62,326 nucleotides of DNA, taken from assembly GCA_027858735.1 (NCBI GenBank), contig JAQICC010000266.1, positions 1 to 62,326 of the forward strand, read 5' to 3'. The notes below the pieces were generated by a model. That model was not told where the DNA came from. It saw nothing but the letters and a program-made list of their open reading frames with translations, and searched no databases. Numbering within the stretch: position 1 is the stretch's first letter; each line of letters opens with the position of its first letter. Position numbers and translations under genes: made by a program. This document shows, piece by piece, positions 6,076-47,796 of the stretch. Source of the DNA: Salinivirgaceae bacterium (GTDB lineage: Bacteria; Bacteroidota; Bacteroidia; Bacteroidales; SZUA-534).

Positions 6076-7653
6076 TTATTTTAAAACCATTTTCTTGGTA
6101 GCAACTTTAGTACCTGCTTCAACTTTGTAAAAGTAAATACCCGATGTTAAACCCGATGCATTTAATTCAATGGTATGATCGCCTGCATTAAGCTCTGAAT
6201 TCAATACGGTTTGAACCTCAGCACCCGTAATATCGTAGACCGAAATCGTAACTTTTGATGCATTTGCCAAACTAAACTGAATGTTTGTTTTGTTTAAAAA
6301 TGGATTTGGATAACATGTCACATTGAAACCGGAAGCCCCTTTATTAGTGAAAATATTAGTGCCATCATCAAAATGCAATTGACAACCAACAGGTTCTCCA
6401 TTATCATCAGCTTTATACGAAGCATAGGTGCTCGCATACGACACATCAATTTCATCGTAATACAAACCGCCATCGCCTCCAACACACCAACTATCAGGCA
6501 GTTCTAAACTCAAAGGGTTTGCATAATAATTAGCAACATACCCTGCAATATTTCCACAGGTATTTGCAAAAACTAAAGGCTCTGAAAAATATGCCTTTTC
6601 AACATTTGCTTCACCAATAGCTGCTTTTACAGTTGAGCAAATATAATTTGGCGATTCAACAGTGTCATATAAGCTCCAGGCATTATGAATGGCCTCATCC
6701 CAAAAAATATTGTTATTTCTAACTTCAATACTTTGCCCACTATAAATTGTATCGAGTGCAATTACTGCAAAATGACCATCGGCCTGGTTTTGTTCCGCAG
6801 CATTAGCATCGGTATGCCCAATACTAATTACATTGGCAAAAACATTATTGGTAATTATTGCCTTACGCGCATTAGCCAAATCAAGACCTCCATTCCTTCC
6901 TACCGTATTAAGTGCGGTTAAATGGTCAACTTTCAAATAATTAACTAACGATCCTTCGTTACGAATTATTCTGTCGGTTAAATTATAGGTTAAACAATTC
7001 TCAATAATCAAGGTATCTACGTAGGACAATACATCGCTTCGTATTTCAATAAACCTACCATTACCATTCATTACATAGCGGTGCCCTAAGTTTCCCATTA
7101 CTGAATTTCGAACATAAACTTTTAGCGAATCAGCTTTAAGCAAAACTGCCCCAGAGTTATCGCCGGTTAATGCACAACCATCAATTATAAATCTGGAATT
7201 CGATTTGCGCATTTCAATCATGCGGTGTAAGTAAGCACCCCCGCCTTCATCACCATTAAAATATATATTCTTCAAAGTTAAATCGCTATATGAATCAATA
7301 TAATCGTTACCTGTAGTACCATCGCTTTTTAGTCCCACTATTATTTCAGGTAGAAAGCCATCATCATTAGTACCTTCACCTTCAATGTGCAAAGGGAAGT
7401 TATTTGAAATAATTTTCCCCAAGGGGTAAACATGATTTCTCTTAAGCATATATATGGTGTTTGGGTTTTCTGCTCTACCTAAAGTATCACCATAAATAAT
7501 ATCCCAAAGCACATTGTTATAATCATCAACTTCACCAACGGGGTTGTTTAAATCGTAACCTGAAACCTCAACTATTCTAGGTTCCTGCGCCTGAATTGTT
7601 GAAAAGCTCAACAGCAAACAAACACTCACTAATAATTTGTAAATATTTTTCAT
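6076..7653 (-). CDS. T9SS-secreted right-handed beta-helix protein (DUF4957/DUF5123-like), partner of receptor 1
   Basis: signal peptide, Asn/Ile/Val-rich coil repeats, C-terminal YPNPF..IYDITG..GIYFYKV; 24 bp after the receptor stop. Confidence 0.75.
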   Translation of the reverse strand: MKNIYKLLVSVCLLLSFSTIQAQEPRIVEVSGYDLNNPVGEVDDYNNVLWDIIYGDTLGRAENPNTIYMLKRNHVYPLGKIISNNFPLHIEGEGTNDDGFLPEIIVGLKSDGTTGNDYIDSYSDLTLKNIYFNGDEGGGAYLHRMIEMRKSNSRFIIDGCALTGDNSGAVLLKADSLKVYVRNSVMGNLGHRYVMNGNGRFIEIRSDVLSYVDTLIIENCLTYNLTDRIIRNEGSLVNYLKVDHLTALNTVGRNGGLDLANARKAIITNNVFANVISIGHTDANAAEQNQADGHFAVIALDTIYSGQSIEVRNNNIFWDEAIHNAWSLYDTVESPNYICSTVKAAIGEANVEKAYFSEPLVFANTCGNIAGYVANYYANPLSLELPDSWCVGGDGGLYYDEIDVSYASTYASYKADDNGEPVGCQLHFDDGTNIFTNKGASGFNVTCYPNPFLNKTNIQFSLANASKVTISVYDITGAEVQTVLNSELNAGDHTIELNASGLTSGIYFYKVEAGTKVATKKMVLK

Positions 7654-7677
7654 TTCTTAAGTTTTATTTGTTTTTAA

Positions 7678-10586
7678 TTAAAATTTATATTGAAGACCCA
7701 TATTAAATGAAGCACCATAACGATTTTCACGTGTCCAATGTTTTTCTACATATTGATAACTCCGCTCACTCTCGCTGGTAATATTGGCCAAATTAGCTGT
7801 TACCGTTACATGTTTACCAATTTTTTGACTCAAACTGGCATCAAAGCGAAGGAACATTGCTGTGAAACCTTCATGCTGCTCTTTAAAGTCTTTTGCAGTA
7901 CCTAGTTTCTTTAAAGAAGGAGACTGGTAAATCATAGAAAAACGACAGGAGAAACCTTTGTAATCGTAACCTATGGAAACATTGCCTGCTAATTCAACCT
8001 GATCGGGTAATACCGATTTATCTAAATATCCAACCGTATCATAAATACGAGATGTTACGCGATTCTCAATTACCGTAATTGGTTTTTCAAACCTTGGATT
8101 AAAGGTTTCAGACCATAAACGGGTTATGTTGGCATTAAATACTATTCCATTGAATGGCTTTGGTAGAAAAGATAAATTGGTTTGTAAATCAATTTCAAAT
8201 CCATAAACCTTCGAACCATCAAAATTTGCATAATCCTCATTCACGCTATAAGCTCCTCTCGGATAACCTTCTTTAATCGCTTGATCTTCTGTTAAGGTAT
8301 AATCAATTTCTGCAAAGAAATTATCGAACTCCTTATAAAAGCCCCCAACGGTAAATAAGCCCAAACGGTTTGCAAAAAACGAAGTCGTAACATCATAACT
8401 CCAGGCTTCAGCATGTTTTAAATTTGGGTTTCCTCTGAATAATTCGCTTTTATTTAAATTAAGCCAATAACGAGGGGTAACCATTGAATAGTCAGGACGG
8501 GCCAATGTTTTAACTGCCGACATACGCACATCGAACCATTGCACCGGTTTAATTTTTAAATGAAAACTTGGTAATAAAACCCCATATTTTTGGTACGAAC
8601 TTGTATCACGAATTGATCCGTTTTCAATAAAACCTGCAATATTCTGAATAATATCTGAATAATAACTATGGTAATCGTTATTGGAATATTCATAGCGTAA
8701 TCCAGGAATAAATGTTAACCAGGAACTATAATTAATTTTTGTCATTATATAAGCCGCAGAAACACGTTCTGTTAAAGTATAATTCTTATAGGCTTTATCT
8801 AACTGAGGGTAAAGTTCTCCCTGATTACGACTGTGCCATAAATCTACATAATCCATATCTATTTCTGGATTTATAAGGTATTCACCATCCCATATTTGAA
8901 GATCGGTTGGTTTGCTATAAAAATTTTGCATGCTAATCCCAGGATCAAGAGTAACTAACTCTTGAGGGAGCATATTTTGTACTGCTTTATCACTTACACT
9001 TGCATCATTATAGTAACTTAATACGGTTTGGTGATTGTGTTTATTTGAACGATCTTCAATTCTATACTTTCCCCCTACCTTTACAAAACCAGCAATTTTA
9101 TCTCCAAAAGAATAATCGGTTTTAAAATCGAGTGCTGCTGTAGTGTTATTTTGCTTGCTTTTTTCAGGTTCCCAATTGTATTGATTTAAATAACCCTTTT
9201 CATAATTATAAACTCGTGTTTGTAATAATTCTTCTGTTGATATTACATATTGTTCTTCAGCCGTTGTACCACGTGACGATCCTTCAGGTTCAAGCAAATA
9301 CATATTTACATCATATAAATTATCATTAACTGTTTGGCTTCTGGCTAAGGTCCAATCCATTGAAACAATACTAACCCTTTGCTGACCCGACAATACTCCT
9401 TGATACGTATACTGTTCTGACTTAGTATGACTTGGCAAATGACGTATTTCTTCGCCATGGTAAATTCTATTCTCGTTCTTTAAGGTTTCCCCATTACGCT
9501 GCGAGAAAAAACCTTGTCCAACAACAAAACCCGAATTGTATTTATAATCGGCAGTTAAATTTCCACCCATTCTTTTAATGGTTCTTAAGTCTTGACGTAT
9601 GGTAGCACTTTTAAATGCCCACTCCTCATATTCATACTGGCTATCATCAAAGAAGTTTGATATTGTTTGAGAACTACGATTCACATTTTCATAACTCAAT
9701 TGTCCAATTAAACCCAGTTTTCCTTCGTAAAAACGTTTGCTTAAATCAACTGAACCTTTATAATTTGAAAATTTATTGGTTAAACCGTTATAACCACCAC
9801 TAGTGCGTATTTTAGCACCGGGTTTATCTGGGGCTTTCGATACTCCAAGGTTCACAATACCTCCAATGGCATCACCATCCATATCGGCCGTAGGCGATTT
9901 ATATACTTCAATGCTCGATAGTAATTCAGGCGATATCATACTTAAATCAACCGATCGGTCACTATCATCTACTCCATTTGAGGTAGATGCAACTTTAACT
10001 CCGTTAATGGTTATTGAGGTTAATTTTGGGCTTAATCCGCGAACCGTAACCTTACTCGCCTCTCCACCCGAACGAGTTACTGATATACCCGGCAAACGAC
10101 CAATGGCCTCGGCAGCATTCACATCGGGTAATTCTTCCATTTTGTCGGACGACACTACACTAACCAAAGCATCGGAATTTAACTGTTGATTTAATGCCTT
10201 AGCCTGTCCTAGTATTTGTACTGATACTACCACCTCGCCTATATCTACAGCATCAAAAACCAGGCTCATATCAAATTTTTTTATTTCACCTGCTCCAATT
10301 TCAATTTCTGTTTTCTCGGTTAAAAAACCGATGTATGAAAATGCCAAAGTATATTTACCTGGCTTAATATTGGTAACGCGGTATTCACCATCCATATTGG
10401 TAATGGTACCTATACTGCTACCTACAATTGCAACGGTGGCTCCTGGTAGACATCGTTGCTCATACCATCTTTCACTACTCCATATATTTCAGCATTTTGA
10501 GCAAAAGCTCCCACTGAAAATATCAGAAATAAACCTATGGTAAATAATTTCTTCGGTTTCTGTGATTTTATAAAATTTAAATTCAT
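7678..10586 (-). pseudogene. TonB-dependent receptor 1 (non-SusC type) with a 1-nt frameshift near 10450
   Basis: ATG 10586 frame (signal peptide, GVVKDG) stops at 10422; the shifted frame continues LPGATVAIVGSSIGTITNMDGEY into the 905-aa ORF with plug and barrel ending in F. Confidence 0.85.
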
Positions 10587-10702
10587 TTTCCTTTTGATTT
10601 TTTTGTTCAAAAAAATATAAACACTCCACTCTTGAGGCTTTACAAACATAAAAAACAATACATTGATTATAAGAATTATAAGCAAGCGATTTTTATTATT
10701 AT

Positions 10703-13169: not shown

Positions 13170-13184
13170 AGTTTTTTGTTTGTA

Positions 13185-13212: not shown

Positions 13213-13237
13213 AGGTTTCATAATTAGATTTCAAGTT

Positions 13238-20983: not shown

Positions 20984-22531
20984 TTATTTATTCAATGTAA
21001 CTTTACCGCTAAAGGTTTTATCATTACTCTTAAGCATGTAAATATAAAGTCCATTATTTAACTTACTTCCATCCCATTGCAATTGATAACTACCCGCTGC
21101 TTGGAAATCAGATTTTAAAGTGCTAACCGCTTTACCAGTAACATCAAATACTTTAAGCTCAACATTTGAAGCTTTAGTTAAGGTATAATCAAAAGTTGCT
21201 ACAGCTTTTACCGGGTTAGGATAAACACTAATTTTTAATGCAGTACTAACACCACTATTATTTATAGAAACCGGTCCTGTTCCTGTCCAATTTAAATCAC
21301 CTAATTGTCCACCTGTAGTTGAACCTGTAATAAGATCATTATTATCGGTAGTAAAATCAAGATTAATATTAAATATGGTTACATCATCAGGCATTGGCCA
21401 GTTTTCTGGTGTTGGATCAGCAGTAGGATCAGTAAATAAACCATCTAAATAATCGTAATTAATAGTTGGAATAGGATTATCAAAAGTAAAAGGAATATCC
21501 CATCCTGCATTGGCTGCATCATCACCCATTTCTGTAGCTACAATAGGAGCTAAAACTTCTGCTCTACTTACGGTATCATATCTACCATAAAAAGCTAAAA
21601 CATCATCATCATAATAAAAGTTGTTATTGCTAATTACAAACTCAGTGTCAGCATCAATGGTATCAGCTGTAACAAGGTAATGGTTTTCATTATCAGGTGA
21701 TGGACCTGTTTGCTCACTTACATTTGTCCAGTTACCCATGTACTTAGGATTTAAGAATAGGTTGTTGGTAATTGTTGCAGAACCAACGTAACCTAAATGG
21801 AATAAACCGTGGTATCCTTGTATTTGCAAACCTGTATTTTGATCAAAAATAAAAGTATTGATTTTACCACCCGACATGTTACGAACAATACGGTCAGCAA
21901 GGTGATACAAGGTTGTATTACGTACTTCAATTTTTTCTACATCAAATTCACGACAGTCAATTAAGCGGCCATTACCATTGTTACGGTTATAGTCACCCGA
22001 TTTACCGACGATACAATCTTCGATTAAAATGTCTTGACCATTTTCACGAACCTGAAGAGCACAAGCTTTATCCATTTCAATTAAACATTTTCTCAAAACG
22101 ATAGTAGTATTTGCTCCTTCTGATCTAAATCCACCCCATTTAGGTTGGCTTCCTTCTCCATTGGCATTCGATAAATAAACGTCTTCTAATAGAATATCAC
22201 CGCGTGTACGGATAGTTTGGGGGTAATCACCTTCATCATTAGGCTTTGCAACCATAATTGCAGGTATACCATCACCTGGTGCTGATTTAATTTGCAATGC
22301 AACATTTAAGCGTATGTAGTTACTGATTTCATAAACCGTACCTCGCTCCAATACATAAACTGTATTATCATCATTTCTTTCTCCATTAGCGGTAGTATCG
22401 CCATGTATAAATTCATTCAAAAGACTTCCGGCAGGCACTGCTTTTTCTACTTGCGCCATTAGGTTAACAGTACTTGCCGATAACAGTGTTATCAGACATG
22501 CCATTTTTAAATTTCTGTAAAATTGTTTCAT
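20984..22531 (-). CDS. T9SS-secreted right-handed beta-helix protein (DUF4957/DUF5123-like), partner of receptor 2; paralog of 6076-7653
   Basis: shared GDT..Y.L.R..VY, NGNGR.I, YHLADRIVRN versus YNLTDRIIRN; ends GQLGDLNW then a YPNP T9SS CTD. Confidence 0.75.
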   Translation of the reverse strand: MKQFYRNLKMACLITLLSASTVNLMAQVEKAVPAGSLLNEFIHGDTTANGERNDDNTVYVLERGTVYEISNYIRLNVALQIKSAPGDGIPAIMVAKPNDEGDYPQTIRTRGDILLEDVYLSNANGEGSQPKWGGFRSEGANTTIVLRKCLIEMDKACALQVRENGQDILIEDCIVGKSGDYNRNNGNGRLIDCREFDVEKIEVRNTTLYHLADRIVRNMSGGKINTFIFDQNTGLQIQGYHGLFHLGYVGSATITNNLFLNPKYMGNWTNVSEQTGPSPDNENHYLVTADTIDADTEFVISNNNFYYDDDVLAFYGRYDTVSRAEVLAPIVATEMGDDAANAGWDIPFTFDNPIPTINYDYLDGLFTDPTADPTPENWPMPDDVTIFNINLDFTTDNNDLITGSTTGGQLGDLNWTGTGPVSINNSGVSTALKISVYPNPVKAVATFDYTLTKASNVELKVFDVTGKAVSTLKSDFQAAGSYQLQWDGSKLNNGLYIYMLKSNDKTFSGKVTLNK

Positions 22532-25494: not shown

Positions 25495-25672
25495 TGAGTT
25501 TGATATTAAATGTTTAGAAAAATTATGAACAGTATTAACAATAGTACCATTAGGTATAAAAATAACTCTACTATTATCGTGAGTTGTTTGCTGCGTTTTA
25601 GCCATCTAAAATTCATTTTGTAAATGTTTACGATAAAAGTACTCGTAATGTATCGTTCAATGATTTTGATGG

Positions 25673-35100: not shown

Positions 35101-38100
35101 AGCAACACTTAAACCTTCGCGAATAATGTAAAGCATACCATTTGCAACATTGGCTTGAACCACTATTTTATCGCCTACCAAATTCGTTGTTGTTTGAGGA
35201 TACATAATCGCAATTACACTATCGGCCTTAACATACCAATTTAAGTCACCCACAGTCTCGCCATCGGCACATACATAACTGGTATCGTTTAATAAAGCAA
35301 AGTTGTAATTTGCAGAATCGGCAAATATTGGAACGGTTGTAAAAGTATTTGTTCCTGCATCCGCTGCTAACAATTCAACGTCAAGATAGTTGTAATCAAT
35401 AACATCAACATTTAAGCTATCGCTCACCTGATCGAATAAACTATTGGTTACAGAAATACTTCCTGCAATTCTGTCTTTATCGTAACGGAATATATTACCG
35501 CCAATTTGCGAGAAAGTACAATGGTTAATAGTTAAATCATCACCACCGGCATAAGCACCGCTTGAGCGATAGAATACTACGCCTTCACCTTCTAATTTCA
35601 CAAAGCTTGAGTTAGAAATAGAAATATCGCCATAATCGGCTGTATTGTTATACAAATTGATAACACGTTGCTTACTGTCAGTTACCAAACAATTCTCCAT
35701 AACAACTTTACTACCAGCAGTATTCAGGCGGAAACTACCGTTGCTATTTGTATTGTTATGCGAATAACAATTGCGAATTACTAAATTCGTTTTGCTATCG
35801 GAACGCAATACATTGTTAGGTATACCTGTACAATCAAATTCAATACCATCAATGGTTAAATCAACATCGTCGGTTGCATTACGAACACGCAACATACCAA
35901 ACGAAGCACTTGTACCAGCCGAATATGTAATAACTGGTTTTGCAGCCAGTCCTGGCTTAGCCATTAACACAGCACTCTTACTAAAATCGGGCTTGCTTGG
36001 TAAATCATAAACTCCACCCGAAGTTGAAAGAATATACATATCGTATAAACCGGCTGTGATATCATCTACTAAAGCTTGAACTTCACCGGCTGCATACTCC
36101 TTAAATGGAGAAGTACTGCTTACTACTGCTAGTTTAGCTATACCTTTAGTAGAAATATTCCCTACAGCATCAACGGAATAGGCATAATAAACGCCTACCG
36201 CTAAACCTGTAGTTGAAATATTTACATCGTTAAGTTTGGCAGTTACCGTATCAACAGCACCTTTACCAGCTGCAATAGCTGCATCAAACAAGGCTACAGT
36301 TGGAGCTACAGTATCGGCAATTACACCATCAAGAATAATATAAACCTTACCGCTACTTTCGCTACTTTGAACAGCTACAAACTGATCAGCAGCATCGGAA
36401 GCCGTTTGTGCACTTGCATAAACTTCAGGTGCTCCTTTAATTACAGTTATGGCGCTATCACCTTTTGCTGATAAATTGCCATCACCATCAACTGCATAAG
36501 CGTAATACGTACCTAAAGCAAGGCTATCGGTAGCTACACTAATGTCAGTATCGTTTGCTATTATTGTGGCCGAATCGGCTTTAGAAGCTGCAACAGCTGC
36601 GTTAAGTTCTGCAATTGTTGTTTGCGCTTCGCCGCTTAATACAATATAAACCGTACCAGTTGGCTTATTACTTTGAACAAGAGCTACAGCACCTTTTGCA
36701 TTGGTAACCGTTTGAACCGTATTTATAACAGCAACAGGAATACTTGCATCAAGAATAGTAATGGCTGCACTGCCTTTTACAGAGATGTTTCCTTCACCAT
36801 CAACAGCATAAGCATAATAAGTACCTGCTGCTAATCCTGCAGTTGAAATAGTAACTGAAGTGTTTGCAACAGTAACTGTATCTTTAGCACCTATAGCGGC
36901 AGTAACTGCAGCGTTAAGTTCTGCCAAAGTACTTTGTGCTTCACCATCTAAAATTACATAAATATAACCTGCATCTTTATTACTCATGGCTAGAACTTCC
37001 TGACCAACGGCATTTGTTACCGATTGTTCTTCGCAAACCACCATTACATCCTCAGGTCCTTTTTCGTGCCAACGCGGATCACCAATTGGTGTAGTTCCAT
37101 CGCTACCTAATAAAAAGCCTTGGTTGGTTAAGCTTAAGTCAAGCGTTGCACTGTCTTTATAAACCGGTGCAGTTGTTATAGCGTTTGTTACTACCAATGC
37201 TGAAGGTAAAACTCCACCAAAACCAGCTACATAAGAGTAGTTAATAGAATCGGTTGTACCTGGTGTATTAAACTCAATGGTATCTTTTACCGCTTCAAAA
37301 ATTGAGTTTGTTACTTTAAACGATTCTGTTAAAGTACCTATCTTAAATACATTATCCTCAATATTTATGAAATTACACTGGTCAACAGTAATACTATTGG
37401 CTGTACTACTTGATGCCGTAATCCAATGTATTACAGGATCGTTGGTAATATTAGCGAATGTTGAATTTGTAATTTTAACATCACCAAATAATAAATCGTT
37501 CTTATCTAAACGGATTAATCGTCCGTAACAATCATGTACAAAACAATCATCCATGGTTAAAGCAGTTCCTGCTTTATCTAAACGAACAATACCACTTGAG
37601 GTTGTGAAATTTTTAATCTCACAATTTTTAACAACTGCAGTAGCGCTATCTTTACGTAAGCGAACAACTCCCGCCATTGCTTCAGTCGCAGTACCATCAA
37701 GTATAACACCTTCAAGCTGTAAGGCAAATTTACCATTCTGTATATCGAAAAAGCTACGGTAGGTGCTTGCATTCGCAGCATCAGTAAACATTGGTTTTGC
37801 AGCCAAACCGGCTTTTGCCATAACAGTAATGTCAGATGCAATATCGATATCGGAAGCCACATAGTTACCACCTGAAGTGCTTAATATATACGTATCGTAT
37901 AAGGCAGCTTCAATATCGGCAACTAAAGCGTCAATATCAGTATCGGCATATTCTTTAGAACTAATTGTACTGCTTGTTACAGTAATTTTATTGGCACCTT
38001 TTGCCGATACATTACCAACAGAATCGGTAGCATATGCATAATAAACGCCAACTGCCAAACCTTCGGTTGAAACCGAAATGTTTGTTAAAGATGCAGTTAC

Positions 38101-41100
38101 CGTATCAACCGCACCTTTACCAGCTGCAACAGCAGCTTCAAAAGCTGGAATTGAATCTTGCAACTCGCCTGAAAGTATAATATAAACTTTACCATGATTG
38201 TCGCTACTTTGAACCAAAACGGTTTGACCAGCAGCATCGGTTGCTGACTGCACATCGGCATAAACCTCAGGCGAACCTTTAATTATTGTGATGGCATTGG
38301 TTCCTTTAGCAGAAATATTTCCATCAACGTCAACCGCATAAGCATAGTACGAACCTAAAGCTAAGCTATCGGTTGGCACACTCATATCGGAATCGTTAGC
38401 CGTTACCGTAGCCGAATCGGCTTTATTGGCAGCTATAGCAGCTTTTAATTCTGTAACAGAAGATTGGGCAACACCATCAAGTACAATATAAACAGTACCT
38501 GTTGGCTTGTTGCTTTGAACTAGAGCCACAGCATCTTTTGCATTGCTCACTGTTTGAATTGCATTACTTACTGCAACCGGAATGGCTGCATTTAATACCG
38601 TAATGGCGTTGGTTCCTTTTGCTGAAATGGCATTCGAACCATCAACGGCATAAGCATAATACGTACCCCCAACTAAACCTTCGGAGGATATAGTTTCTAA
38701 TTTATAAGCTTCGGTTACCGTAACTTTAACTCCTTTTGAATCCGCTACTGCAGCATCAAAATCGGCAATAGTAACTTGTGTTTCACCATCAAGTATTATA
38801 TAAATTGAACCAGCTGCTTTGTTACTTTTAACCATAACTTGCTGTCCGGCAGCATTGGTTACCGACTGCACTTCATAAATTGCCAGTACAGACGAAGCTG
38901 CCTGATTGTGCCAGCGTGGGTCACCAATTGGTGTTTTACCAGTGCTTCCCAAAACAAAATCAGGATTTGTTAGGTTAAAATCAAGAGCTGCAGCATCGGT
39001 ATAAACCGGAGCTGTTGTAATTGTATTTTTCAATTTAAAATAGTCAGGTAATTCTTTACCGAAACCTGCTATATATGAATAATTAATAGAATCTGTAGTA
39101 CCTGGAGCGTTAAACTCTGTACTATCTTGAATAAGATCGAAAATTGAATTCGTAATTAAAACAGGTTCAACAACCGAACCTAGTTTAAATACGTTATCCT
39201 TAACATCGTAAAAATTACATTGATCAATGGTTATGTTATTAACCGTGCTACTTGCAGCAGTAACCCATTGAATTATAGGTTCACCAGTGATTTTAGCAAA
39301 GGTTGAATTGCTAATACTTATATCACCAAAAGCTGATGCATTGTTATTAATACGAACAAAACGTCCATGGCAATCATGTACAAAACAGCTATCCATTGTT
39401 AGTGAGGCTCCAGGATTACTTAACCTTAATGCCCCATTACTTGTTGTATAATTGTAAATCTCACATTGTTTAATAACCATACCGCTATTATCACCTCTAG
39501 CTCTAACAACGGCACCCATCGGTATACCATTTGTTGTTGCATCAAACTTTAATCCAATAAGAGTTAACGTGTATGCATCTCCAATATCGAAATATGTTTG
39601 CCATGTTTTTGTATTCTGTGAGGCCTTTATGATTGGCATAGCAGCTAAACCAGCTTTTGCTTTTACCACGATATCGGCTGATAAGTCAATATCTAAAAAC
39701 GAATAAACACCACCCGAAGTACTCAAAATGTATGTTTCATATACAGCCGCTTCCATTTCATTAGCTAGAGTTACAGTATCAACAACTGCATATTCTTTTT
39801 CGGTAATCGTTGTACTTGTTACAACAATTTTATTGCTTCCTTTTGTTGAAAGCGCATCATCGGCATCAACTGCATAAGCATAGTAAACACCTGGTGCTAA
39901 ACCTGTTGTTGAAAGTGCCACATCGGTATTTGCTGAAACAACACTTGCTGAAGCACCTTTATTGGCAGTTACGGCAGCATCTAAGTCAGCAATGGTTGTT
40001 TGCACCTCACCATCAAGAATAATATATACTTTTCCGGCACCTTCACTACTTTGCACATTAACTAGCTGTCCTGCAGCATCGGTTACCCTTTGCGCATCAG
40101 CTGTTACTGATGGTGCCGCATTACTAATGGTAATTGCATTTGTTCCTTTAACCGACATGTCGGTACCTTCAACAGCATAGGCATAATAGGTTCCTACTGC
40201 AATATCGCTTACAGAAATAGCCATATCGGTATTGGCACCAGTTACAGCAACTTTTGCTCCTTTTTTAGCGGCCACTGCAGCATCTAAATCTGCAATAGTA
40301 GCCTGTGTTTCACCATCAAGAATTACATATACAAAACCTGTTGCTTTTGTACTTTGAACAAGTACCTCATCACTTACACCATTTTCTGATGCTTGCACTG
40401 TATTTGACACCACCGGTAGTGGCACATATAGATTAACAGTAATTGCATTGCTTCCTTTTGCAGAAACTACATTGCTACCATCTACCGCATAGCCATAATA
40501 AGTACCAACATCGATACCTGAAGTTGAAACAGCTGTATGTGTAAAAGCTGCTGTTACGCCAGCTTTAGCGCCCTTCAAGGCAGTAACTGCCGCATCAAGT
40601 TCCGTTAAATTACTTTGGGCTTCACCATCAAGAATCATATATACAAAACCAGTAGCTTTGTTACTTTTAAGTTGAGCATTTGAAGTAGAACCGTTATCGA
40701 CAGTGTGTACATCATTATATTCCGCAACAGCAGGTGCTGGCGCTGTCGGATCCCAAAGTGGGTCTCCAATAGGTTTAGCAGCTGAGCCTGTCAATGAACC
40801 CGCATTTGTTAAAGTTAAATCCAAATTGCCGGCATCAACATAAGTTGGCGCCGTTGCTATCGAATTCGTTTCTGTTATATCAGAATCTAAAGTACCTGTA
40901 AGACCTGCAGTATAACAATAATCCATAGTACTTGATGTACCTGCTGTTGCCAATGTAATAGTACCCGTAATGGCATCAAAATTACTGTTGGTAATAGTTA
41001 AATTACCTACAACTGTTCCAAGGTTCATGGCCTTATCGGCAACATTGTAAAAGGTACATTGATCAACAGTAATATTTGTAACTGTACTACTACCAGTGCT

Positions 41101-41757
41101 AACCCAATGCAAAACAGGATCATCGGTAATATTTGCGAAAGTTGAATTCGTTACCGAAATATCTCCCATCGCAACTCCACTATTGTCAATACGTAAAAGT
41201 CGACCATAAGAATCATGTATGTAACTACCATCTACAGTAAGAGCAACTCCAGCATTTGCAAGACGAGCAACTCCATTTGCGGTACTAAAATCATACATCT
41301 CACAATTATTAATAGTAACACTTGCATTATCGCTCCTGGCACGCACTACACCAGACATTGCTTCAGTAGCAGCAGTACCATCAAATTTAATCCCTTCAAC
41401 GGTTAAGGAGAAAGCTCCTTGAATATCGAAGAAATATCTATAGGTTGAAGTATTACCAGTATTCGAAATTATTGGTTTCGCAGCCAAAAATTCCTTGGCT
41501 TTTACTATAATATTACTTGCTAAGTCGACATCAGACATGTCATAAATTCCACCTGAGCTAGACAGAATGTACTCATCATAAGTACCCCCTTCAATATCGG
41601 TTATTAAGTCGGCCACCTCTGAATCGGCATACTCTTTTGATGTTGCAAAACTCGGTAGGGCTAAACCCAAAAAGAGCGTGCAAAACACCACCAGATTCAA
41701 AGCTGTTTTTAACAGATTGAATCTCATTTTCAATAAATTGCAATGTGTTTTTTTCAT
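32137..41757 (-). CDS. giant T9SS-type exported repeat protein: five DUF4957/DUF5123-like beta-helix modules interleaved with 14 Ig-like repeats
   Basis: signal peptide; module starts (KEYA..YILSTSGG) near 41640, 39800, 37960, 36105, 34310, each ending in GDP(R/L)W or GDL(N/R)W; repeats VQS.K..G.VYIILDG..YYAYAVD; CTD-like tail GVYIIKV..KRIVIE. Confidence 0.8.
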   Translation of the reverse strand: MKKTHCNLLKMRFNLLKTALNLVVFCTLFLGLALPSFATSKEYADSEVADLITDIEGGTYDEYILSSSGGIYDMSDVDLASNIIVKAKEFLAAKPIISNTGNTSTYRYFFDIQGAFSLTVEGIKFDGTAATEAMSGVVRARSDNASVTINNCEMYDFSTANGVARLANAGVALTVDGSYIHDSYGRLLRIDNSGVAMGDISVTNSTFANITDDPVLHWVSTGSSTVTNITVDQCTFYNVADKAMNLGTVVGNLTITNSNFDAITGTITLATAGTSSTMDYCYTAGLTGTLDSDITETNSIATAPTYVDAGNLDLTLTNAGSLTGSAAKPIGDPLWDPTAPAPAVAEYNDVHTVDNGSTSNAQLKSNKATGFVYMILDGEAQSNLTELDAAVTALKGAKAGVTAAFTHTAVSTSGIDVGTYYGYAVDGSNVVSAKGSNAITVNLYVPLPVVSNTVQASENGVSDEVLVQSTKATGFVYVILDGETQATIADLDAAVAAKKGAKVAVTGANTDMAISVSDIAVGTYYAYAVEGTDMSVKGTNAITISNAAPSVTADAQRVTDAAGQLVNVQSSEGAGKVYIILDGEVQTTIADLDAAVTANKGASASVVSANTDVALSTTGLAPGVYYAYAVDADDALSTKGSNKIVVTSTTITEKEYAVVDTVTLANEMEAAVYETYILSTSGGVYSFLDIDLSADIVVKAKAGLAAMPIIKASQNTKTWQTYFDIGDAYTLTLIGLKFDATTNGIPMGAVVRARGDNSGMVIKQCEIYNYTTSNGALRLSNPGASLTMDSCFVHDCHGRFVRINNNASAFGDISISNSTFAKITGEPIIQWVTAASSTVNNITIDQCNFYDVKDNVFKLGSVVEPVLITNSIFDLIQDSTEFNAPGTTDSINYSYIAGFGKELPDYFKLKNTITTAPVYTDAAALDFNLTNPDFVLGSTGKTPIGDPRWHNQAASSVLAIYEVQSVTNAAGQQVMVKSNKAAGSIYIILDGETQVTIADFDAAVADSKGVKVTVTEAYKLETISSEGLVGGTYYAYAVDGSNAISAKGTNAITVLNAAIPVAVSNAIQTVSNAKDAVALVQSNKPTGTVYIVLDGVAQSSVTELKAAIAANKADSATVTANDSDMSVPTDSLALGSYYAYAVDVDGNISAKGTNAITIIKGSPEVYADVQSATDAAGQTVLVQSSDNHGKVYIILSGELQDSIPAFEAAVAAGKGAVDTVTASLTNISVSTEGLAVGVYYAYATDSVGNVSAKGANKITVTSSTISSKEYADTDIDALVADIEAALYDTYILSTSGGNYVASDIDIASDITVMAKAGLAAKPMFTDAANASTYRSFFDIQNGKFALQLEGVILDGTATEAMAGVVRLRKDSATAVVKNCEIKNFTTSSGIVRLDKAGTALTMDDCFVHDCYGRLIRLDKNDLLFGDVKITNSTFANITNDPVIHWITASSSTANSITVDQCNFINIEDNVFKIGTLTESFKVTNSIFEAVKDTIEFNTPGTTDSINYSYVAGFGGVLPSALVVTNAITTAPVYKDSATLDLSLTNQGFLLGSDGTTPIGDPRWHEKGPEDVMVVCEEQSVTNAVGQEVLAMSNKDAGYIYVILDGEAQSTLAELNAAVTAAIGAKDTVTVANTSVTISTAGLAAGTYYAYAVDGEGNISVKGSAAITILDASIPVAVINTVQTVTNAKGAVALVQSNKPTGTVYIVLSGEAQTTIAELNAAVAASKADSATIIANDTDISVATDSLALGTYYAYAVDGDGNLSAKGDSAITVIKGAPEVYASAQTASDAADQFVAVQSSESSGKVYIILDGVIADTVAPTVALFDAAIAAGKGAVDTVTAKLNDVNISTTGLAVGVYYAYSVDAVGNISTKGIAKLAVVSSTSPFKEYAAGEVQALVDDITAGLYDMYILSTSGGVYDLPSKPDFSKSAVLMAKPGLAAKPVITYSAGTSASFGMLRVRNATDDVDLTIDGIEFDCTGIPNNVLRSDSKTNLVIRNCYSHNNTNSNGSFRLNTAGSKVVMENCLVTDSKQRVINLYNNTADYGDISISNSSFVKLEGEGVVFYRSSGAYAGGDDLTINHCTFSQIGGNIFRYDKDRIAGSISVTNSLFDQVSDSLNVDVIDYNYLDVELLAADAGTNTFTTVPIFADSANYNFALLNDTSYVCADGETVGDLNWYVKADSVIAIMYPQTTTNLVGDKIVVQANVANGMLYIIREGLSVATVDDLNAAVAANKGDSASIVAANTDVEISVTGLYSGSYYAYVLDSKGVISAPSQYASVVLDWLNIQYDEQIVTNGVGKLVSVTTSVDGIVYIVKEGDYTSIADLESAVTGKRGNKANALADVAVEISVEGLQTGTYYGYAVSDTNISLRGENPVYINSAIYANNKVQTATNVEGNWSYAYVMGGSIGGHVYLLNDDVNSDNLTVEILEEAVVNNLAAKDTVATAEVDFKVSTAGLEAGKYHFYMVVGSQISDPAADAVTVRIPRVYYYTAEQAEDMRSAFYNASITTGDEVILTTSGGVYNFKTYFRVYGGVYLHAQKGLAEKPVLFYNPAVGDEDVRHFMRLIEYYPPGGLLHIEGIEFDGGANDDFAGNSTWALRVREDVDFDYGYSVVFDDCYIHDFNTQNLNSSGVESTDGYVFRQANNVMADSVVFNNCIVKNTYNQAIYFRNTVNKEYFGSLRITNCTFVDVPSVLNVSAPLADTKSTIQIDHCTFDSIGVNSPSARIITPDNLSYLSMSNSIVSNSASQVATDTALVAYGSSKLTHNNLYLTPSIAMHGMSQVSNTTVYNPAYYDRANFNYAPTNASILGAGNDGKQLGDLRWLATDDLMVEPDMVYVSNTELKLIFSQAVDTVSAAVATNYTLSGTVGLTGNPEAVSVVSPNEVVLTVADFGSAVDFATIIAEVAEVVNVMGDSVQDAANTATYIIPIAISMKGQLLANEAGQTVKATCGSTGSTIYLVPEQAIILSVNDLITLADSGDARKAIVAEAGVIVGIDVTDIMPGMYYGYAVNANETEWSQRSVNAAEIRGLEVDMEIQLSKTNGPGETVVAQSTYEINAIVYLVADSIDVTTISDLSGAVDNNDGTSANVVDAFEDLEISIEGVNPGRYRAYATSGDSISEKCIVPIQIEMYVGISSLSNKNVKIFAYKNTAYVETEKFEQTEITVFNVKGAIEYFNKAQSSRTEIYLTEGVYIIKVKRENNIQTKRIVIE

Positions 41758-44355: not shown

Positions 44356-44370
44356 TGTTACAATTTTATT

Positions 44371-47300
44371 TTATTCTGTTAAGTATATTTTTTTTGTTAT
44401 GCTCATATTATCATAGCTCACCTTTGCAAAGTATAAAGACTCTTGTAAACCAAGTTCAATGGTGTTTTTGCTTTCAAAAATGCGTTGCCTATGAATTAAC
44501 TTACCCCCGCTATTATAAATATGAACACTTGCTTTATTAAAATTTACATTGGAAAAATTCACATATACTGTACTATTAAAACAATACACGCTGGGTTTTG
44601 CTTGCTCACTTTGATTGACAGAAACAATACTTTTTATAAAGGCTGACTTTGAACTTTTTTCAGATATTCTCCCTTCGGTATCGGCTGCAAAAGCGTAATA
44701 ATATCCTTCTTTTAAATTAAAAGTAGATATCTCAATAGTATCATTTGCATTAACATTTCTAACTACAGTGCCTAATCCATTGCTAAGCGCTTGTTCCATA
44801 TCCTTTACATTTTTGGGTACCTGAGTAATAAACAATAGAAAAACATCACCCTTTTTGCTACTTTTTGCAATAACAAAATCCGTTTCGCCACTTGATACTT
44901 CTTGCGATGCCATAGTAACTATCGGTCGTAAATCGGGTACTTGAACGCTAGTTTGGCTTATTCCATTAATTAATGCCCCATTGTTTGCTTTTACATATTG
45001 CACCTCTATAATAATCAGTGAATTATAAGGTAAAAATCCTATGGAACTAAAATTAAGGGATACGGTCACTGAATCAACTTCATTTACTATTTTTGGGCTA
45101 CCTGTTAATCCGGCACTGCCATTAGCTATGTAATTGGTGTTTTTTAGTGCTGAAACCCTTTCAAATGGTTGATTAAACTTTAATTCAACTGTTGAATCAT
45201 TAATATAGAAACCCTGATTCCCCTGCAATCCAAAATCGGTATAAATACCCCTATCTGATTTTTGTGCTAAATAGAGTGATAACGGGTTTAACCCATCAAC
45301 ATTAGCACCATCCCATTCACCACGAGGACGGTCACCAAATGTATCATCATTAACATAGCTGCCTTTAAATCCGATACAATAGTTTTTAGCCGACACCCAT
45401 GGATTTTGGCAAATTGCTGTTTTTCCTTTACAATTCCACATTACCTGATTAACACCGGCCCAACCATGACCAGTCCCATAATTTGAACGGTCACGCACAT
45501 TCAGCTCATTATCTGAGGTAACTACATCGTACAGCGTTCCTACTGCCCACCGGTGATGTGGACCAATATCATTACTTGCTTTGGTGGCAGTACAATAACT
45601 AAATACATTTGGACCACAAACTCGTGATCCGGTTACATAATCGTGCCGACCTTCGCTTGCCGAGCAATTTGAAATTAAACTGGTTTGACCATTGCAATTA
45701 AATGAGTATCGACGTCCACCAGTAACCACTGATTTTGGACTAAGTGATGTGCAATTTGTAACGGTAATATACCTTGCATACGAGCTAATATTTGCACAGG
45801 AATAGGCAAAGTATTTAGCTGTTATATTTTTAGCCCAACAATGTTCTGCTCTGTTAAAATAAACTGCATTCCATGCATGATTTTCATCGGTTTCACTTGC
45901 ATAAACTGATTGCAGTTGCATATTCTCAATGCCACAATTTTGAATGCGCTCGTTAAAAGTACATTTGTAAACTTTTCGCGAATCGTTATAATTAACATCC
46001 AAAGCCATAACAATAGGATTGTAAAAAAATATACTGTCTCCTGTTGATCCTGAAGCAATGCGTTTCACTTCTCGTTCAAAATTAAAAGCATAATCGGATG
46101 CTACCCATTGGTTAACATCACCATCATCAGGAATTTGATCCATTTTAAGATCGTTAACCCAAGCTTTATTAAACTGTTGGTAAATACAAATATGATCGCT
46201 TGTGCTAAATTCATGACCTTTGGGTACTATAACATACTTTGCTCCTACAGGAATATACGATGGTACAATGTTTTGAACACTACTGGCTATTTTGTTTAAT
46301 GATCCGCTTGCTGCACCAACCTTTATTAAGGATGAACCTTCGCTTTTACTTGTTGCAATTAAAATAGTTCCATCATTCCCTTGCCCTTCGCCTCTTAAAA
46401 CAATTCCTTGTGAACGAAGAGAAATATCGGATGAAAATTCATAAGTACCTGCCTTAATTAAAATGGTCCCTTTAAAACCTTCGCTATTTAGGTTTGTATT
46501 TTGAGCTACCGAATCAATAATATGTTGAATATAGCTTGTAGCATCTCCCTCTATTGGACTAACACTTGCCAATACCGCTAATTCAGGTAATTTTTTTTCA
46601 CCTCGTCTATAACCCACATGGCTAAAATCGGGAATTACATCGCCCTTTTTATCGGCTCGGTATTTTAATTTTCCGTTTTGATTATATTTTAAAAAATACG
46701 ATTCCCATTTTCCATTATCATCAGGTGTTGGAACTACCCAAACCCCTTGATTTTCATAGTTATTAGGATTATCACCGATATCAATCGAATCTTCGGGTTC
46801 AGCATTATATTCCCATGGCAAAATTCCTATATTATCACCATCGTTGGCCTTAGAAAAAAGTGACTCGTTGGTAACAAAATAGTTGGCATCGTATTTAGGA
46901 TTATAGTATAAACAGCTTTGTCCTGTTGAACTTCCTAAATCCGCACAACGATAAAAGTCGCAATAATCTAGTTTAGCTCCAGCAATTAATTTAAAAGGAT
47001 TGGCACTTTTTGAATTCGAAAAAACAGAGTTTTCAATGCTAAGATCGCTAGCATTTTCTATACCTATAATTGGAAAAGAATCTGCTACAGAAATACTATC
47101 AAAAACACAGTGATTAATAGAAATTGACCCGTTGGTGAGGTTAGCATTTTCAGAAAAACAAATAACTTCTTTTGCGTAGTTTGCAAAAACGCAACTCTTA
47201 AATTCAAGAGACGCAAAAGAAGCTTCTTTGTTAAACTCACTTACTACTAACTCTATTGATCTACTATTATGAAATAAACAATTATTAAAAAATATTTTAT

Positions 47301-47796
47301 CTGCAAATGTACCAGCTAAGCATTTAACGACACATTCTGGTATATTTTTGAATTCACAATTTTGCATAAATAAGTTATACTGGCTTGGAGCTATATTTTC
47401 AGAACCTATTTCAATGGCATTTGCGATAGAAACTTCGTTCGCACTATTTGAAAAAATAAGACTAATTACCTCAACCGTGCAGTTATTTAATATTTGAAAC
47501 ACCGACTTATTAACAGAATCGGCTGTTTGAAGAATTGGTTTATCAACCATATCCTCTCCCATTATGGTAATACTTGCGGATAATAAAACTTGGTTTTCAA
47601 AACAATAATTTGCTCCTGATGATGTAAGAATAAAAATATCACCATCAGAAGCATTCGATATTGCAATAGCAAGATCGTTTGCATAAAATCCATTAATGGG
47701 TGCAGTAAACCTGTAGGTATTAGCCAATGAGGTTTGAGCTAATGCTATAGCAAATAATGGTACAAATATTTTAAATAGCTTTATAATTATTCTCAT
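44371..47796 (-). CDS. T9SS-type exported protein: DUF4957-like beta-helix + unclassified pectate-lyase-3-like beta-helix + Ig domains + CTD
   Basis: N-module GDIFILTSSGANY..KPIL..NIGILPW; central IPDFSHVGY, GRRYSF, GRHDYVTG, GPHHRWAVG, GHGWAG; Ig modules shared with the giant protein. Confidence 0.65.
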   Translation of the reverse strand: MRIIIKLFKIFVPLFAIALAQTSLANTYRFTAPINGFYANDLAIAISNASDGDIFILTSSGANYCFENQVLLSASITIMGEDMVDKPILQTADSVNKSVFQILNNCTVEVISLIFSNSANEVSIANAIEIGSENIAPSQYNLFMQNCEFKNIPECVVKCLAGTFADKIFFNNCLFHNSRSIELVVSEFNKEASFASLEFKSCVFANYAKEVICFSENANLTNGSISINHCVFDSISVADSFPIIGIENASDLSIENSVFSNSKSANPFKLIAGAKLDYCDFYRCADLGSSTGQSCLYYNPKYDANYFVTNESLFSKANDGDNIGILPWEYNAEPEDSIDIGDNPNNYENQGVWVVPTPDDNGKWESYFLKYNQNGKLKYRADKKGDVIPDFSHVGYRRGEKKLPELAVLASVSPIEGDATSYIQHIIDSVAQNTNLNSEGFKGTILIKAGTYEFSSDISLRSQGIVLRGEGQGNDGTILIATSKSEGSSLIKVGAASGSLNKIASSVQNIVPSYIPVGAKYVIVPKGHEFSTSDHICIYQQFNKAWVNDLKMDQIPDDGDVNQWVASDYAFNFEREVKRIASGSTGDSIFFYNPIVMALDVNYNDSRKVYKCTFNERIQNCGIENMQLQSVYASETDENHAWNAVYFNRAEHCWAKNITAKYFAYSCANISSYARYITVTNCTSLSPKSVVTGGRRYSFNCNGQTSLISNCSASEGRHDYVTGSRVCGPNVFSYCTATKASNDIGPHHRWAVGTLYDVVTSDNELNVRDRSNYGTGHGWAGVNQVMWNCKGKTAICQNPWVSAKNYCIGFKGSYVNDDTFGDRPRGEWDGANVDGLNPLSLYLAQKSDRGIYTDFGLQGNQGFYINDSTVELKFNQPFERVSALKNTNYIANGSAGLTGSPKIVNEVDSVTVSLNFSSIGFLPYNSLIIIEVQYVKANNGALINGISQTSVQVPDLRPIVTMASQEVSSGETDFVIAKSSKKGDVFLLFITQVPKNVKDMEQALSNGLGTVVRNVNANDTIEISTFNLKEGYYYAFAADTEGRISEKSSKSAFIKSIVSVNQSEQAKPSVYCFNSTVYVNFSNVNFNKASVHIYNSGGKLIHRQRIFESKNTIELGLQESLYFAKVSYDNMSITKKIYLTE

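What the first reader, a model, noticed from the sequence alone, without database searches (positions are those of the whole stretch)
6076..47796. One beta-helix module family deployed eight times in three architectures
Seen: the two receptor partners, the five modules of the 3206-aa protein and the N-terminus of the 1141-aa protein share an N-cap (Y.L.R..VY / YILSTSGGVY / FILTSSGANY, then a P.I strand) and a C-cap (QLGDLNW, PIGDPRW, TVGDLNW, QLGDLRW, NIGILPW, more divergent PVGCQLHF). Established from recall: DUF4957/DUF5123 proteins occur uncharacterised in Bacteroides PULs. Inference: a locus-specific polyuronate-binding or lyase module amplified as single, tandem and enzyme-fused forms.
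Basis: partly seen in the sequence, partly recalled or inferred. Interest (0 to 1): 0.7.

Follow-up and report, generated by a model that had tools for sequence, protein, structure and literature searches.

The report
One beta-helix module, eight copies
Eight stretches in four exported proteins of this sugar-utilisation locus are copies of one beta-helix module related to the non-catalytic helper domain of PL6 alginate lyases, so they most likely bind polysaccharide rather than cut it; two copies belong to a subfamily always encoded next to an outer-membrane import channel.

Summary
Every quoted motif is present. M1-M5 of the 3206-aa protein and the N-terminus of the 1141-aa protein are linked by BLAST (E 1e-4 to 1e-124). 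The 515/525-aa pair (E 1e-42) joins them only through profiles: hhalign gives 98.5%, and the pair's family profile scores 47/49/43/22/9 bits on M1-M5, always in register. Two other beta-helices in the window score nothing.

M1-M5 match DUF5123/DUF4957. The six-module profile matches the C-terminal domain of two-domain PL6 alginate lyases (7DMK, E 1.5e-26). That domain is published as inactive, weakly polyguluronate-binding and shaping the catalytic domain's site. Across 231 related modules only the caps and the Asn ladder are conserved, with no acid/base cluster. Relatives occur single, tandem or fused to unrelated enzymes. This favours a binding or accessory role over lyase activity.

The module is not locus-specific. 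The 515/525-aa proteins belong to a T9SS-tailed subfamily that follows a non-SusC TonB-dependent receptor in 13 of 13 loci, next to varied catabolic genes. This genome has two further members elsewhere.

No function has been tested. A lyase role is not excluded for the 515-aa subfamily, which conserves many charged residues.

The parts
6349..7590 (-). Beta-helix body of the 525-aa protein (aa 22-435): divergent receptor-partner module with a degenerate C-cap (PVGCQLHF)
   Evidence: BLAST to the 515-aa protein 1e-42; scores 525.7 bits on the family HMM; T9SS tail 59.4 bits; lacks several polar residues invariant in the 515-aa subfamily
7678..10586 (-). TonB-dependent receptor 24 bp upstream of the 525-aa gene. 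The called ORF is 7678-10395; the signal peptide lies in another frame from 10586 (apparent frameshift near 10455-10470)
   Evidence: TIGR01782 353.5 bits (cutoff 310) and no SusC match; frames read
21257..22456 (-). Beta-helix body of the 515-aa protein (aa 26-425): receptor-partner module
   Evidence: AF2 model pLDDT 89.5 with beta-helix at aa 58-306 and a helical region at 309-420; hhalign to the six modules 98.5%; T9SS tail 44.2 bits
22567..25605 (-). TonB-dependent receptor (1012 aa) 35 bp upstream of the 515-aa gene
   Evidence: TIGR01782 371.8 bits; SusC/RagA model only 48.4 bits against a cutoff of 368; 35% identical to the other receptor
40738..41643 (-). M1 of the 3206-aa protein (aa 39-340)
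   Evidence: DUF5123 33.6 bits; 47.1 bits on the 515-aa family HMM
38896..39804 (-). M2 (aa 652-954)
   Evidence: DUF5123 38.7 and DUF4957 33.1 bits, both above cutoff; 49.2 bits on the 515-aa family HMM
37054..37962 (-). M3 (aa 1266-1568)
   Evidence: DUF5123 36.2 bits; 55% identical to M2
35221..36108 (-). M4 (aa 1884-2179)
   Evidence: 31-36% identical to M1-M3; 62.5% identical to module 2 of orthologue P0178
33286..34287 (-). M5 (aa 2491-2824)
   Evidence: DUF5123 35.0 bits; closest in-window relative of N1141, 6e-21; 70% identical to module 3 of P0178
46792..47724 (-). N-terminal module of the 1141-aa protein (aa 25-335)
   Evidence: BLAST 6e-21 to M5; only 10.7 bits on DUF5123
45211..46791 (-). 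Central domain of the 1141-aa protein (aa 336-862): a different, unannotated beta-helix, probably the catalytic part
   Evidence: More than 1000 homologues without a Pfam domain and many invariant R/D/E/H/W; AF2 pLDDT 88.6; Foldseek matches capsule lyase 7w1c, phage depolymerases, GH110 and GH141
32371..40695 (-). Fourteen copies of an 87-aa unannotated spacer domain within this span: three after each of M1-M4 and two after M5. One more copy lies at 44641-44889 in the 1141-aa protein
   Evidence: Iterated HMM, 75-111 bits per copy; alignment A5; no convincing Pfam or PDB match
32140..32439 (-). C-terminal 100 aa of the 3206-aa protein: probable T9SS sorting domain
   Evidence: Por_Secre_tail 24.0 bits, below the cutoff of 27

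Best explanation
All eight stretches are copies of one right-handed beta-helix module. Its conserved parts are an N-cap (D..L..GG.Y, then ..KP), a three-rung Asn ladder (N.TF / HCTF / N.IF) and a C-cap (GD.RW). It is the same module as Pfam DUF4957+DUF5123 and as the C-terminal domain of two-domain PL6 alginate lyases. I infer that it is a non-catalytic polysaccharide-binding or accessory module that type IX secretion displays on the cell surface. It is used in three ways here. (1) The 515- and 525-aa proteins belong to a diverged subfamily always encoded directly after a non-SusC TonB-dependent receptor. They probably sit at the receptor and hand it substrate, the place a SusD or surface glycan-binding protein holds in classical loci. 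(2) The 3206-aa protein strings five diverged modules on spacers of 87-aa domains, which would make a long multivalent capture protein. (3) In the 1141-aa protein, one module sits in front of an unrelated, probably catalytic beta-helix, as a binding module would. Shown: homology, domain order, secretion tails, gene neighbourhoods. Inferred: binding, lack of catalysis, contact with the receptor.
For: Homology of all eight: with negative controls. An own-genome paralogue of the receptor partners reaches DUF4957 at 27.3 bits and bridges the two groups. Relation to the PL6 C-terminal domain: six-module profile against 7dmk residues 439-745, E 1.5e-26, also 5gkd and 8bwk; there is no match to the catalytic N-terminal domain. 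Published properties of that domain: inactive on polyG, polyM and polyMG, binds polyguluronate with apparent Kd about 1.4 mM, and remodels the active site of the N-terminal domain (PMC12992946). No conserved catalytic set: in 231 module instances from 149 representative proteins, columns at 60% conservation or more lie in the caps, the Asn ladder or a few isolated core positions; none forms an acid/base cluster. The six window modules share no invariant K, R, D, E or H. The module is combined like a binding module: of the 150 best relatives, 84 have two or more matched stretches and 38 have three or more. Relatives carry T9SS tails, fn3 or Flg_new_2 spacers, and fusions to SASA esterase or CBM9. 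Surface display: T9SS tails at 59.4, 44.2 and 29.1 bits and 24 bits in the giant protein. Receptor pairing: 13 of 13 loci have a homologous receptor directly upstream on the same strand. Single-module relatives of the M type do not. Diverged copies: M1-M3 are 47-55% identical, and each of M1 and M3 is closer to the single orthologous module of P0178 (62-64%) than to the other (52%).
Against: No binding or activity data exist for any of these proteins. The PL6 C-terminal domain binds its substrate only weakly, and its main known role is to shape a partner catalytic domain through a DEST loop. The two acidic residues (DE) of that loop are an insertion absent from the window modules. No PL6 catalytic domain was found in the proteins scanned. 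The close 515-aa subfamily keeps many invariant charged residues (R136, E152, D154, R189, D192, R194, D213, R214, H241). That is more than is usual for a plain binding protein and could be an active site. Foldseek found no close structural match for the 515-aa model (TM about 0.3). I could not map conserved residues onto the models. Contact between partner and receptor rests on gene order alone.
Confidence: 0.6

Rival explanations
1. Some modules, above all the 515-aa subfamily, are enzymes: a new beta-helix polysaccharide lyase or hydrolase family that works at the mouth of the receptor and trims polymer to importable pieces.
For: Eighteen orthologues at 38-72% identity keep 55 invariant columns, including Arg/Asp/Glu/His motifs (PKWGGFR, C..E.D, NGNGRLID.R, DR..RN, QG.HG). 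These recall the acid cluster plus Lys/Arg base of PL1, PL6 and PL9. Close homologues sit beside GH88-like and GH2 genes. Weak Foldseek hits include PL6 chondroitinase B and Pel9A.
Against: Most of those residues are lost in the 525-aa paralogue and in distant family members that keep the receptor pairing. Those distant members sit beside inositol or nucleoside genes, where a lyase makes little sense. The wider module family shows no conserved catalytic set, and its only assayed relative is inactive.
Confidence: 0.2
2. The 3206-aa protein is mainly an adhesin or structural surface fibre, like the giant T9SS proteins used in gliding or attachment. Its beta-helix modules would be rigid building blocks without specific sugar binding.
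For: It is very long and repetitive with a T9SS-like tail. Other giant proteins reuse the same module, Ig and 87-aa domain cassette in another order (P0179). The modules have no conserved polar surface.
Against: Its gene follows a hybrid two-component sensor, the 1141-aa gene and a GH2 gene, and this order is kept in a second organism (L018). The modules are homologous to a domain that binds polyguluronate. Diverged modules suggest differing ligands rather than uniform scaffolding.
Confidence: 0.12
3. The resemblance between the 515/525-aa pair and the other six is only generic beta-helix composition.
For: No convincing BLAST hit links the two groups (best E 0.004 in a database of eight sequences). 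Neither protein reaches DUF4957 or DUF5123.
Against: hhalign gives 98.5% in register from the N-cap. HMM scores up to 49 bits fall on the same profile positions in all five modules, and two other beta-helices in the same window score nothing. A paralogue of the pair hits DUF4957 at 27.3 bits. The three Asn-ladder motifs and both caps correspond.
Confidence: 0.04

Closest known systems
C-terminal domain of two-domain PL6 alginate lyases (BcAlyPL6 7DMK, AlyGC 5GKD, BoPL6)
   Same: Same beta-helix module over its full length (profile E 1.5e-26 to 7dmk residues 439-745). That domain is non-catalytic and binds polyguluronate (PMC12992946). The window locus also carries uronate-directed enzymes: PL31, PL14 and a PF05426 lyase.
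   Different: No PL6 catalytic domain is attached or found in the proteins scanned. The acidic residues (DE) of the DEST loop that dock onto the catalytic domain are missing. Here the module stands alone, in tandem, or before an unrelated beta-helix, and carries a T9SS tail.
Pfam DUF4957 (PF16318) / DUF5123 (PF17161) proteins of Bacteroidota
   Same: M1-M5 match both models in the expected order. This genome also has a 1049-aa member directly after a SusD gene in a GH28/GH88 locus.
   Different: N1141 and the 515- and 525-aa proteins fall below both models. I found only one open-access paper that mentions these families, and only once each, so they give no functional guidance.
SusD and surface glycan-binding proteins that partner SusC transporters
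   Same: The gene lies immediately downstream of a TonB-dependent transporter, the protein is surface exposed, the locus is controlled by a hybrid two-component sensor, and the pairing is kept across distant genomes.
   Different: The fold is a beta-helix, not the helical TPR-like SusD fold, and there is no SusD Pfam match. The sequence suggests anchoring by a T9SS tail rather than a lipid; I ran no lipobox or signal-peptide predictor. The receptor is the TIGR01782 type, not SusC. Physical contact is untested.
Carbohydrate-binding modules in multimodular CAZymes
   Same: Promiscuous appended module, found single, repeated or fused to different catalytic domains (PL6, SASA esterase, the 1141-aa central domain).
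   Different: At about 300 aa it is far larger than typical CBMs and has a beta-helix fold. As far as I know it is not assigned to a CBM family (my own recollection, not checked here).

Membership tests
Pfam DUF5123 (PF17161) | Score at or above the gathering cutoff of 35.1 bits | tested here: met
   The whole 3206-aa protein scores 98.3 bits. Single modules: M2 38.7 and M3 36.2 are above; M5 35.0, M1 33.6 and M4 27.0 are below; N1141 scores 10.7; the 515- and 525-aa proteins have no hit.
Pfam DUF4957 (PF16318) | Score at or above the gathering cutoff of 30.8 bits | tested here: inconclusive
   M2 scores 33.1 (met). M3 22.7, M4 23.6 and M5 21.9 are below. M1, N1141 and the 515- and 525-aa proteins have no hit. 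The own-genome receptor-partner paralogue scores 27.3.
Two-domain PL6 alginate lyase | N-terminal PL6 catalytic beta-helix with a Ca2+ site and a Lys/Arg pair | tested here: not met
   No Chondroitinase_B/PL6 Pfam hit in any protein scanned. The module profile scores only 1.6 bits on the N-terminal domain of 7dmk.
Two-domain PL6 alginate lyase | C-terminal accessory beta-helix domain | tested here: met
   Profile of the six modules against 7dmk residues 439-745: E 1.5e-26, covering profile positions 13-298.
Two-domain PL6 alginate lyase | Conserved DEST loop of the C-terminal domain that contacts the active site | tested here: not met
   In the alignment to 7dmk the two acidic residues (DE) are an insertion relative to the module profile. 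M1-M3 read S-ST at this place.
Beta-helix polysaccharide lyases (PL1/PL6/PL9 type) | Conserved acidic Ca2+-binding cluster plus a Lys/Arg base on the helix face | tested here: not met
   At the sequence level only. No such columns appear among 231 module instances or among the six window modules. The close 515-aa subfamily does keep charged motifs, so the question stays open for that subfamily.
SusD/RagB | Match to the SusD Pfam models | tested here: not met
   No SusD hit in the 515- or 525-aa proteins even at E up to 10. A true SusD elsewhere in the genome scores 86.7 bits.
SusC/RagA transporters (for the two receptors) | TIGR04056 score at or above its cutoff of 368 | tested here: not met
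   48.4 bits for the 1012-aa receptor and no hit for the 905-aa one. Both pass TIGR01782 (371.8 and 353.5 bits against a cutoff of 310).
T9SS type A cargo | C-terminal sorting domain (PF18962 cutoff 27 bits; TIGR04183 cutoff 23 bits) | tested here: met
   PF18962: 525-aa protein 59.4, 515-aa 44.2, 1141-aa 29.1 bits; the 3206-aa protein reaches only 24.0 bits, below cutoff. TIGR04183: 525-aa 56.8, 515-aa 38.8, 1141-aa 26.0 bits, all above 23. Secretion itself is not testable with these tools.

The most novel reading that the evidence does not exclude
The 515/525-aa subfamily is a previously undescribed kind of transporter partner. It would be a T9SS-anchored beta-helix protein, derived from the same module as the PL6 accessory domain, that docks on non-SusC TonB-dependent receptors and captures substrate for them. 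That would be an alternative to the SusC/SusD pair in several Bacteroidota lineages. In the same locus the module has also been built into a five-fold capture protein.
Probability: 0.4. Interest if true: 0.75.

Novelty: new variant of a known kind. Interest (0 to 1): 0.55.

Why it matters
The result gives two uncharacterised Pfam families (DUF4957, DUF5123) a concrete, testable role by tying them to the assayed accessory domain of PL6 alginate lyases. It shows that the module behaves like a large binding module that can stand alone, be repeated, or be fused to different enzymes. It also separates out a subfamily that always follows a non-SusC outer-membrane receptor. If that pairing is physical, some Bacteroidota import glycans and perhaps small sugars with receptor-partner machinery other than SusC/SusD. 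Genome-based searches for polysaccharide utilisation loci that key on SusC/SusD pairs would miss such loci.

Tried and rejected
1. BLAST alone does not link the 515/525-aa pair to the other six modules; profiles were needed.
2. The first attempt to find related loci with the 30-sequence alignment failed for lack of a conserved stretch. The 18-sequence alignment worked but returned only 7 loci.
3. Foldseek of the 515-aa model against the PDB gave only weak, poorly superposed beta-helix hits (TM about 0.3), so it names no family.
4. A sequence-profile search of the PDB with the 515-aa family found only secretion-tail matches.
5. The 87-aa spacer domain has no convincing Pfam or PDB match.
6. The central domain of the 1141-aa protein has no PDB sequence match by phmmer. 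Its family profile gave only a 56-residue match to 7chu at E 1.7e-5.
7. hhalign of the six modules against the 1141-aa central-domain alignment gave 95.9%. The hit falls on the N-terminal modules of the full-length homologues in that alignment, not on the central domain, so it is not a clean control.
8. A ninth module in the N-terminal beta-helix of the 1521-aa protein was considered and rejected. That region is PL31-like (6kfn, 2.8e-47) and scores 1.3 bits on the family HMM.
9. A literature search for a described T9SS beta-helix partner of TonB-dependent receptors found nothing relevant.
10. I could not map conserved residues onto the models because coordinates are not returned.
Full report
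**Layout.** Apart from one lyase gene on the plus strand, the relevant genes lie on the minus strand. In transcription order they are:
- a hybrid two-component sensor (48205-52311);
- the 1141-aa protein (44371-47796);
- a GH2 (41914-44355);
- the 3206-aa protein (32137-41757);
- a PAS histidine kinase and a second hybrid sensor;
- a 1012-aa TonB-dependent receptor (22567-25605);
- the 515-aa protein (20984-22531);
- a GH88-like protein;
- a PF05426 alginate-lyase-like gene on the plus strand;
- a 1521-aa multidomain protein;
- a PL14 protein;
- a second receptor (7678-10395);
- the 525-aa protein (6076-7653).

The N-terminus of the 1521-aa protein matches the PL31 alginate lyase 6kfn (E 2.8e-47), followed by GH8. 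The locus is therefore directed at a uronate-containing polymer.

**Checking the observation.** I cut the modules at these residues:
- M1 39-340, M2 652-954, M3 1266-1568, M4 1884-2179 and M5 2491-2824 of the 3206-aa protein;
- 25-335 of the 1141-aa protein;
- the bodies of the 515- and 525-aa proteins.

BLAST links M1-M5 and N1141 to one another. M1-M3 are 47-55% identical, M4 is 31-36% identical to them, and M5 matches N1141 at E 6e-21. The 515- and 525-aa proteins match each other at E 1e-42. They have no convincing BLAST link to the other six.

**Linking the two groups by profiles.** I collected 54 homologues of the 515-aa protein (E <= 0.001); those matching over most of its length carry no Pfam domain other than the secretion-tail models. 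I aligned 30 sequences: 28 of these plus the two window proteins (A1).
- hhalign of A1 against the six modules (A2) gives probability 98.5% and E 1.7e-15 over 195 columns. It starts exactly at the N-cap, with YVLERGTVY over YILSTSGGVY and IPAIMV over MPIIK.
- An HMM of A1, which contains no 3206-aa sequence, hits M1-M5 at 47.1, 49.2, 42.8, 21.8 and 9.4 bits and N1141 at 9.6 bits. The hits always fall on profile positions about 55-258. A second small hit falls on the C-cap, at most 12.8 bits.
- The same search gives 1.3 bits on the PL31 beta-helix and nothing on the central beta-helix of the 1141-aa protein.
- hhalign of A1 against that central-domain family aligns only the secretion tail, at 31%.
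- A third paralogue of the pair, found elsewhere in the genome, hits Pfam DUF4957 directly at 27.3 bits.

**What the module is.** M1-M5 match DUF5123 at 27-39 bits (cutoff 35.1), and the whole protein scores 98.3 bits. M2-M5 match DUF4957 at 22-33 bits; M2 is above the 30.8 cutoff and M1 has no hit. N1141 and the pair are below both models.

A profile of the six modules matches residues 439-745 of BcAlyPL6 (7dmk) at E 1.5e-26, nearly end to end. It also matches the same region of AlyGC (5gkd) and 8bwk. This region is the C-terminal domain of two-domain PL6 alginate lyases. A 2026 study of BoPL6 reports that this domain alone:
- is inactive on polyG, polyM and polyMG;
- binds polyguluronate weakly (apparent Kd about 1.4 mM);
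- binds the catalytic N-terminal domain and changes its specificity and mode of action through a DEST loop (PMC12992946).

In the alignment, the two acidic residues (DE) of that loop are an insertion that the window modules lack. None of the proteins scanned in the window has a PL6 catalytic domain.

**Is there an active site?** The six window modules share no invariant K, R, D, E or H. A profile search of 1.84 billion representative proteins found 1095 relatives at E <= 0.001 and 567 at E <= 1e-10. I aligned 231 near-full-length module instances from the 149 best representative proteins. The columns conserved at 60% or more lie mostly in the N-cap, the three Asn-ladder rungs (N.TF, HCTF, N.IF) and the C-cap GD.RW. 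The few others are isolated core positions, and none forms an acid/base cluster. The same three rungs appear in the 515-aa family as N.T.Y, HNT and NNL. So the family as a whole keeps its fold and varies its surface, as binding modules do.

**Architectures.** An iterated HMM finds 14 copies of an 87-aa domain in the 3206-aa protein and one in the 1141-aa protein.
- The giant protein reads: signal peptide, then (module plus three spacers) four times, then module, Ig-like domain, two spacers, tail.
- The 1141-aa protein reads: signal peptide, module, about 520 aa of another domain, Ig-like domain, one spacer, tail. It is the last unit of the giant protein with an extra domain inserted.

That extra domain belongs to a family of more than 1000 proteins without Pfam annotation. 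The family has many invariant R, D, E, H and W, and in other proteins it is fused to PF05426, GH88 or GH2 domains. Its model (pLDDT 88.6) resembles the Klebsiella K1 capsule lyase, phage depolymerases and tailspikes, GH110 and GH141. 'Enzyme-fused' is therefore plausible, but the enzyme class is unknown.

Among the 150 best relatives of the module, 84 have two or more matched stretches and 38 have three or more. Ten that I scanned include T9SS-tailed single, double, triple and quadruple forms with fn3 or Flg_new_2 spacers. Others are fused to SASA esterase or CBM9. So the three architectures are a general habit of this family and not peculiar to this locus.

**History of the giant gene.** The only close large homologue (P0178, 1975 aa, 64% identical) lies in the same gene order: sensor, 1141-aa homologue, GH2, giant. 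It has three modules. Its first module is 62-64% identical to M1 and M3, its second 62.5% to M4, and its third 70% to M5. The window protein thus carries the M1-type 614-aa unit three times. M1 and M3 are each closer to the single P0178 module than to each other (52%). The copies have therefore diverged rather than being kept alike, which fits differing ligands or relaxed constraint. A more distant 3179-aa protein (P0179) reuses the same module, Ig and spacer set in another order.

**The receptor partners.** Both receptors pass TIGR01782 (372 and 354 bits, cutoff 310). They fail the SusC/RagA model: 48 bits against a cutoff of 368 for one, no hit for the other. Neither partner matches SusD.

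A homologous receptor (26-46% identical) lies directly upstream on the same strand in all of these:
- ten distinct foreign loci carrying a homologue of the 515-aa protein, from MAGs labelled Bacteroidales, Rikenellaceae, Saprospiraceae and Bacteroidetes and from unlabelled metagenome contigs;
- the two window pairs;
- a third pair on another contig of this genome.

That is 13 of 13. The neighbouring genes differ. Close homologues sit with a hybrid sensor plus a GH88-like or GH2 gene. Distant ones sit with LacI-type regulators and GH28/uronate, inositol or nucleoside-hydrolase/ribokinase genes. Two single-module relatives of the M type are not next to a receptor. The pairing therefore defines the subfamily, and the subfamily is not tied to polyuronates.

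The 515-aa model (pLDDT 89.5) has a beta-helix at residues 58-306, a helical region at 309-420 and the sorting domain at 434-513. Its PDB neighbours are only weak.

One caution applies. The 18 closest orthologues keep 55 invariant columns with many charged residues. Most of these are lost in the 525-aa paralogue and in distant members. Catalysis is thus not excluded for the close subfamily.

**Distribution.** In this genome all six M-type modules lie in the window. Family members outside it are the third receptor partner and a 1049-aa T9SS-tailed protein with DUF4957+DUF5123. The latter lies directly after a SusD gene in a GH28/GH88 locus, a fourth architecture. Among 30 related genomes, only 2 carry M-type modules and only 2 carry the partner subfamily. 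The locus is therefore accessory.

**Verdict.** What has been shown is homology, domain order and gene neighbourhood. Binding, absence of catalysis and receptor contact are inferences.

Notes from the same scan on overlapping stretches reached similar descriptions. I saw them after my own analysis, and they did not change it.

Noticed in passing
window 10396-10586 (minus strand): The 905-aa receptor ORF lacks its signal peptide and the first third of its CarboxypepD_reg domain. These lie in another frame starting at 10586, with the frames meeting near 10455-10470. This is a one-base frameshift, either an assembly error or a real pseudogene.
   Followed up: partly
window 32371-40695 and 44641-44889: An 87-aa domain (consensus G.VYIILDG..Q.T..DL.AAV.A.KG ... 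G.YYAYAVD) occurs 14 times in the giant protein and once in the 1141-aa protein. It recurs in P0178 and P0179. It has no convincing Pfam or PDB match.
   Followed up: partly
window 45211-46791: The central domain of the 1141-aa protein belongs to a large unannotated beta-helix family (more than 1000 proteins, typically about 795 aa) with invariant motifs such as EGRHDYVTG, GPHHRW and GHGWAG. In other proteins the family is fused to PF05426, GH88 or GH2. Its structural neighbours are capsule lyases and phage depolymerases. It is a candidate new carbohydrate-active enzyme family.
   Followed up: partly
window 10968-12278 and 13238-14548: The last 437 aa of the PL31-GH8 protein and of the PL14 protein are 78% identical (F5/8 type C domain, further domains and tail). 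This suggests a fairly recent exchange of the C-terminal block between two enzymes.
   Followed up: no
L016 (own genome, contig C192) 145-4894: A third receptor-plus-partner pair lies on a 5.4-kb contig: a 994-aa receptor, a 55-bp gap, then a 569-aa T9SS-tailed partner that reaches DUF4957 at 27.3 bits.
   Followed up: partly
L017 (own genome, contig C72) 1620-6757: A classical SusD gene is followed by a 1049-aa T9SS-tailed protein carrying one DUF4957+DUF5123 module at aa 647-929, beside GH28 and GH88 genes. The same module is used in the usual post-SusD position.
   Followed up: partly
L018 10001-15928: The orthologue of the giant protein in another organism has three modules instead of five, in an otherwise conserved operon. 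The module number therefore varies by whole 614-aa units.
   Followed up: yes
whole genome G000: More than 100 reading frames in this 6-Mb genome end in a T9SS sorting domain, which appeared as tail-only matches of the A1 profile. This is an unusually large secreted repertoire.
   Followed up: no
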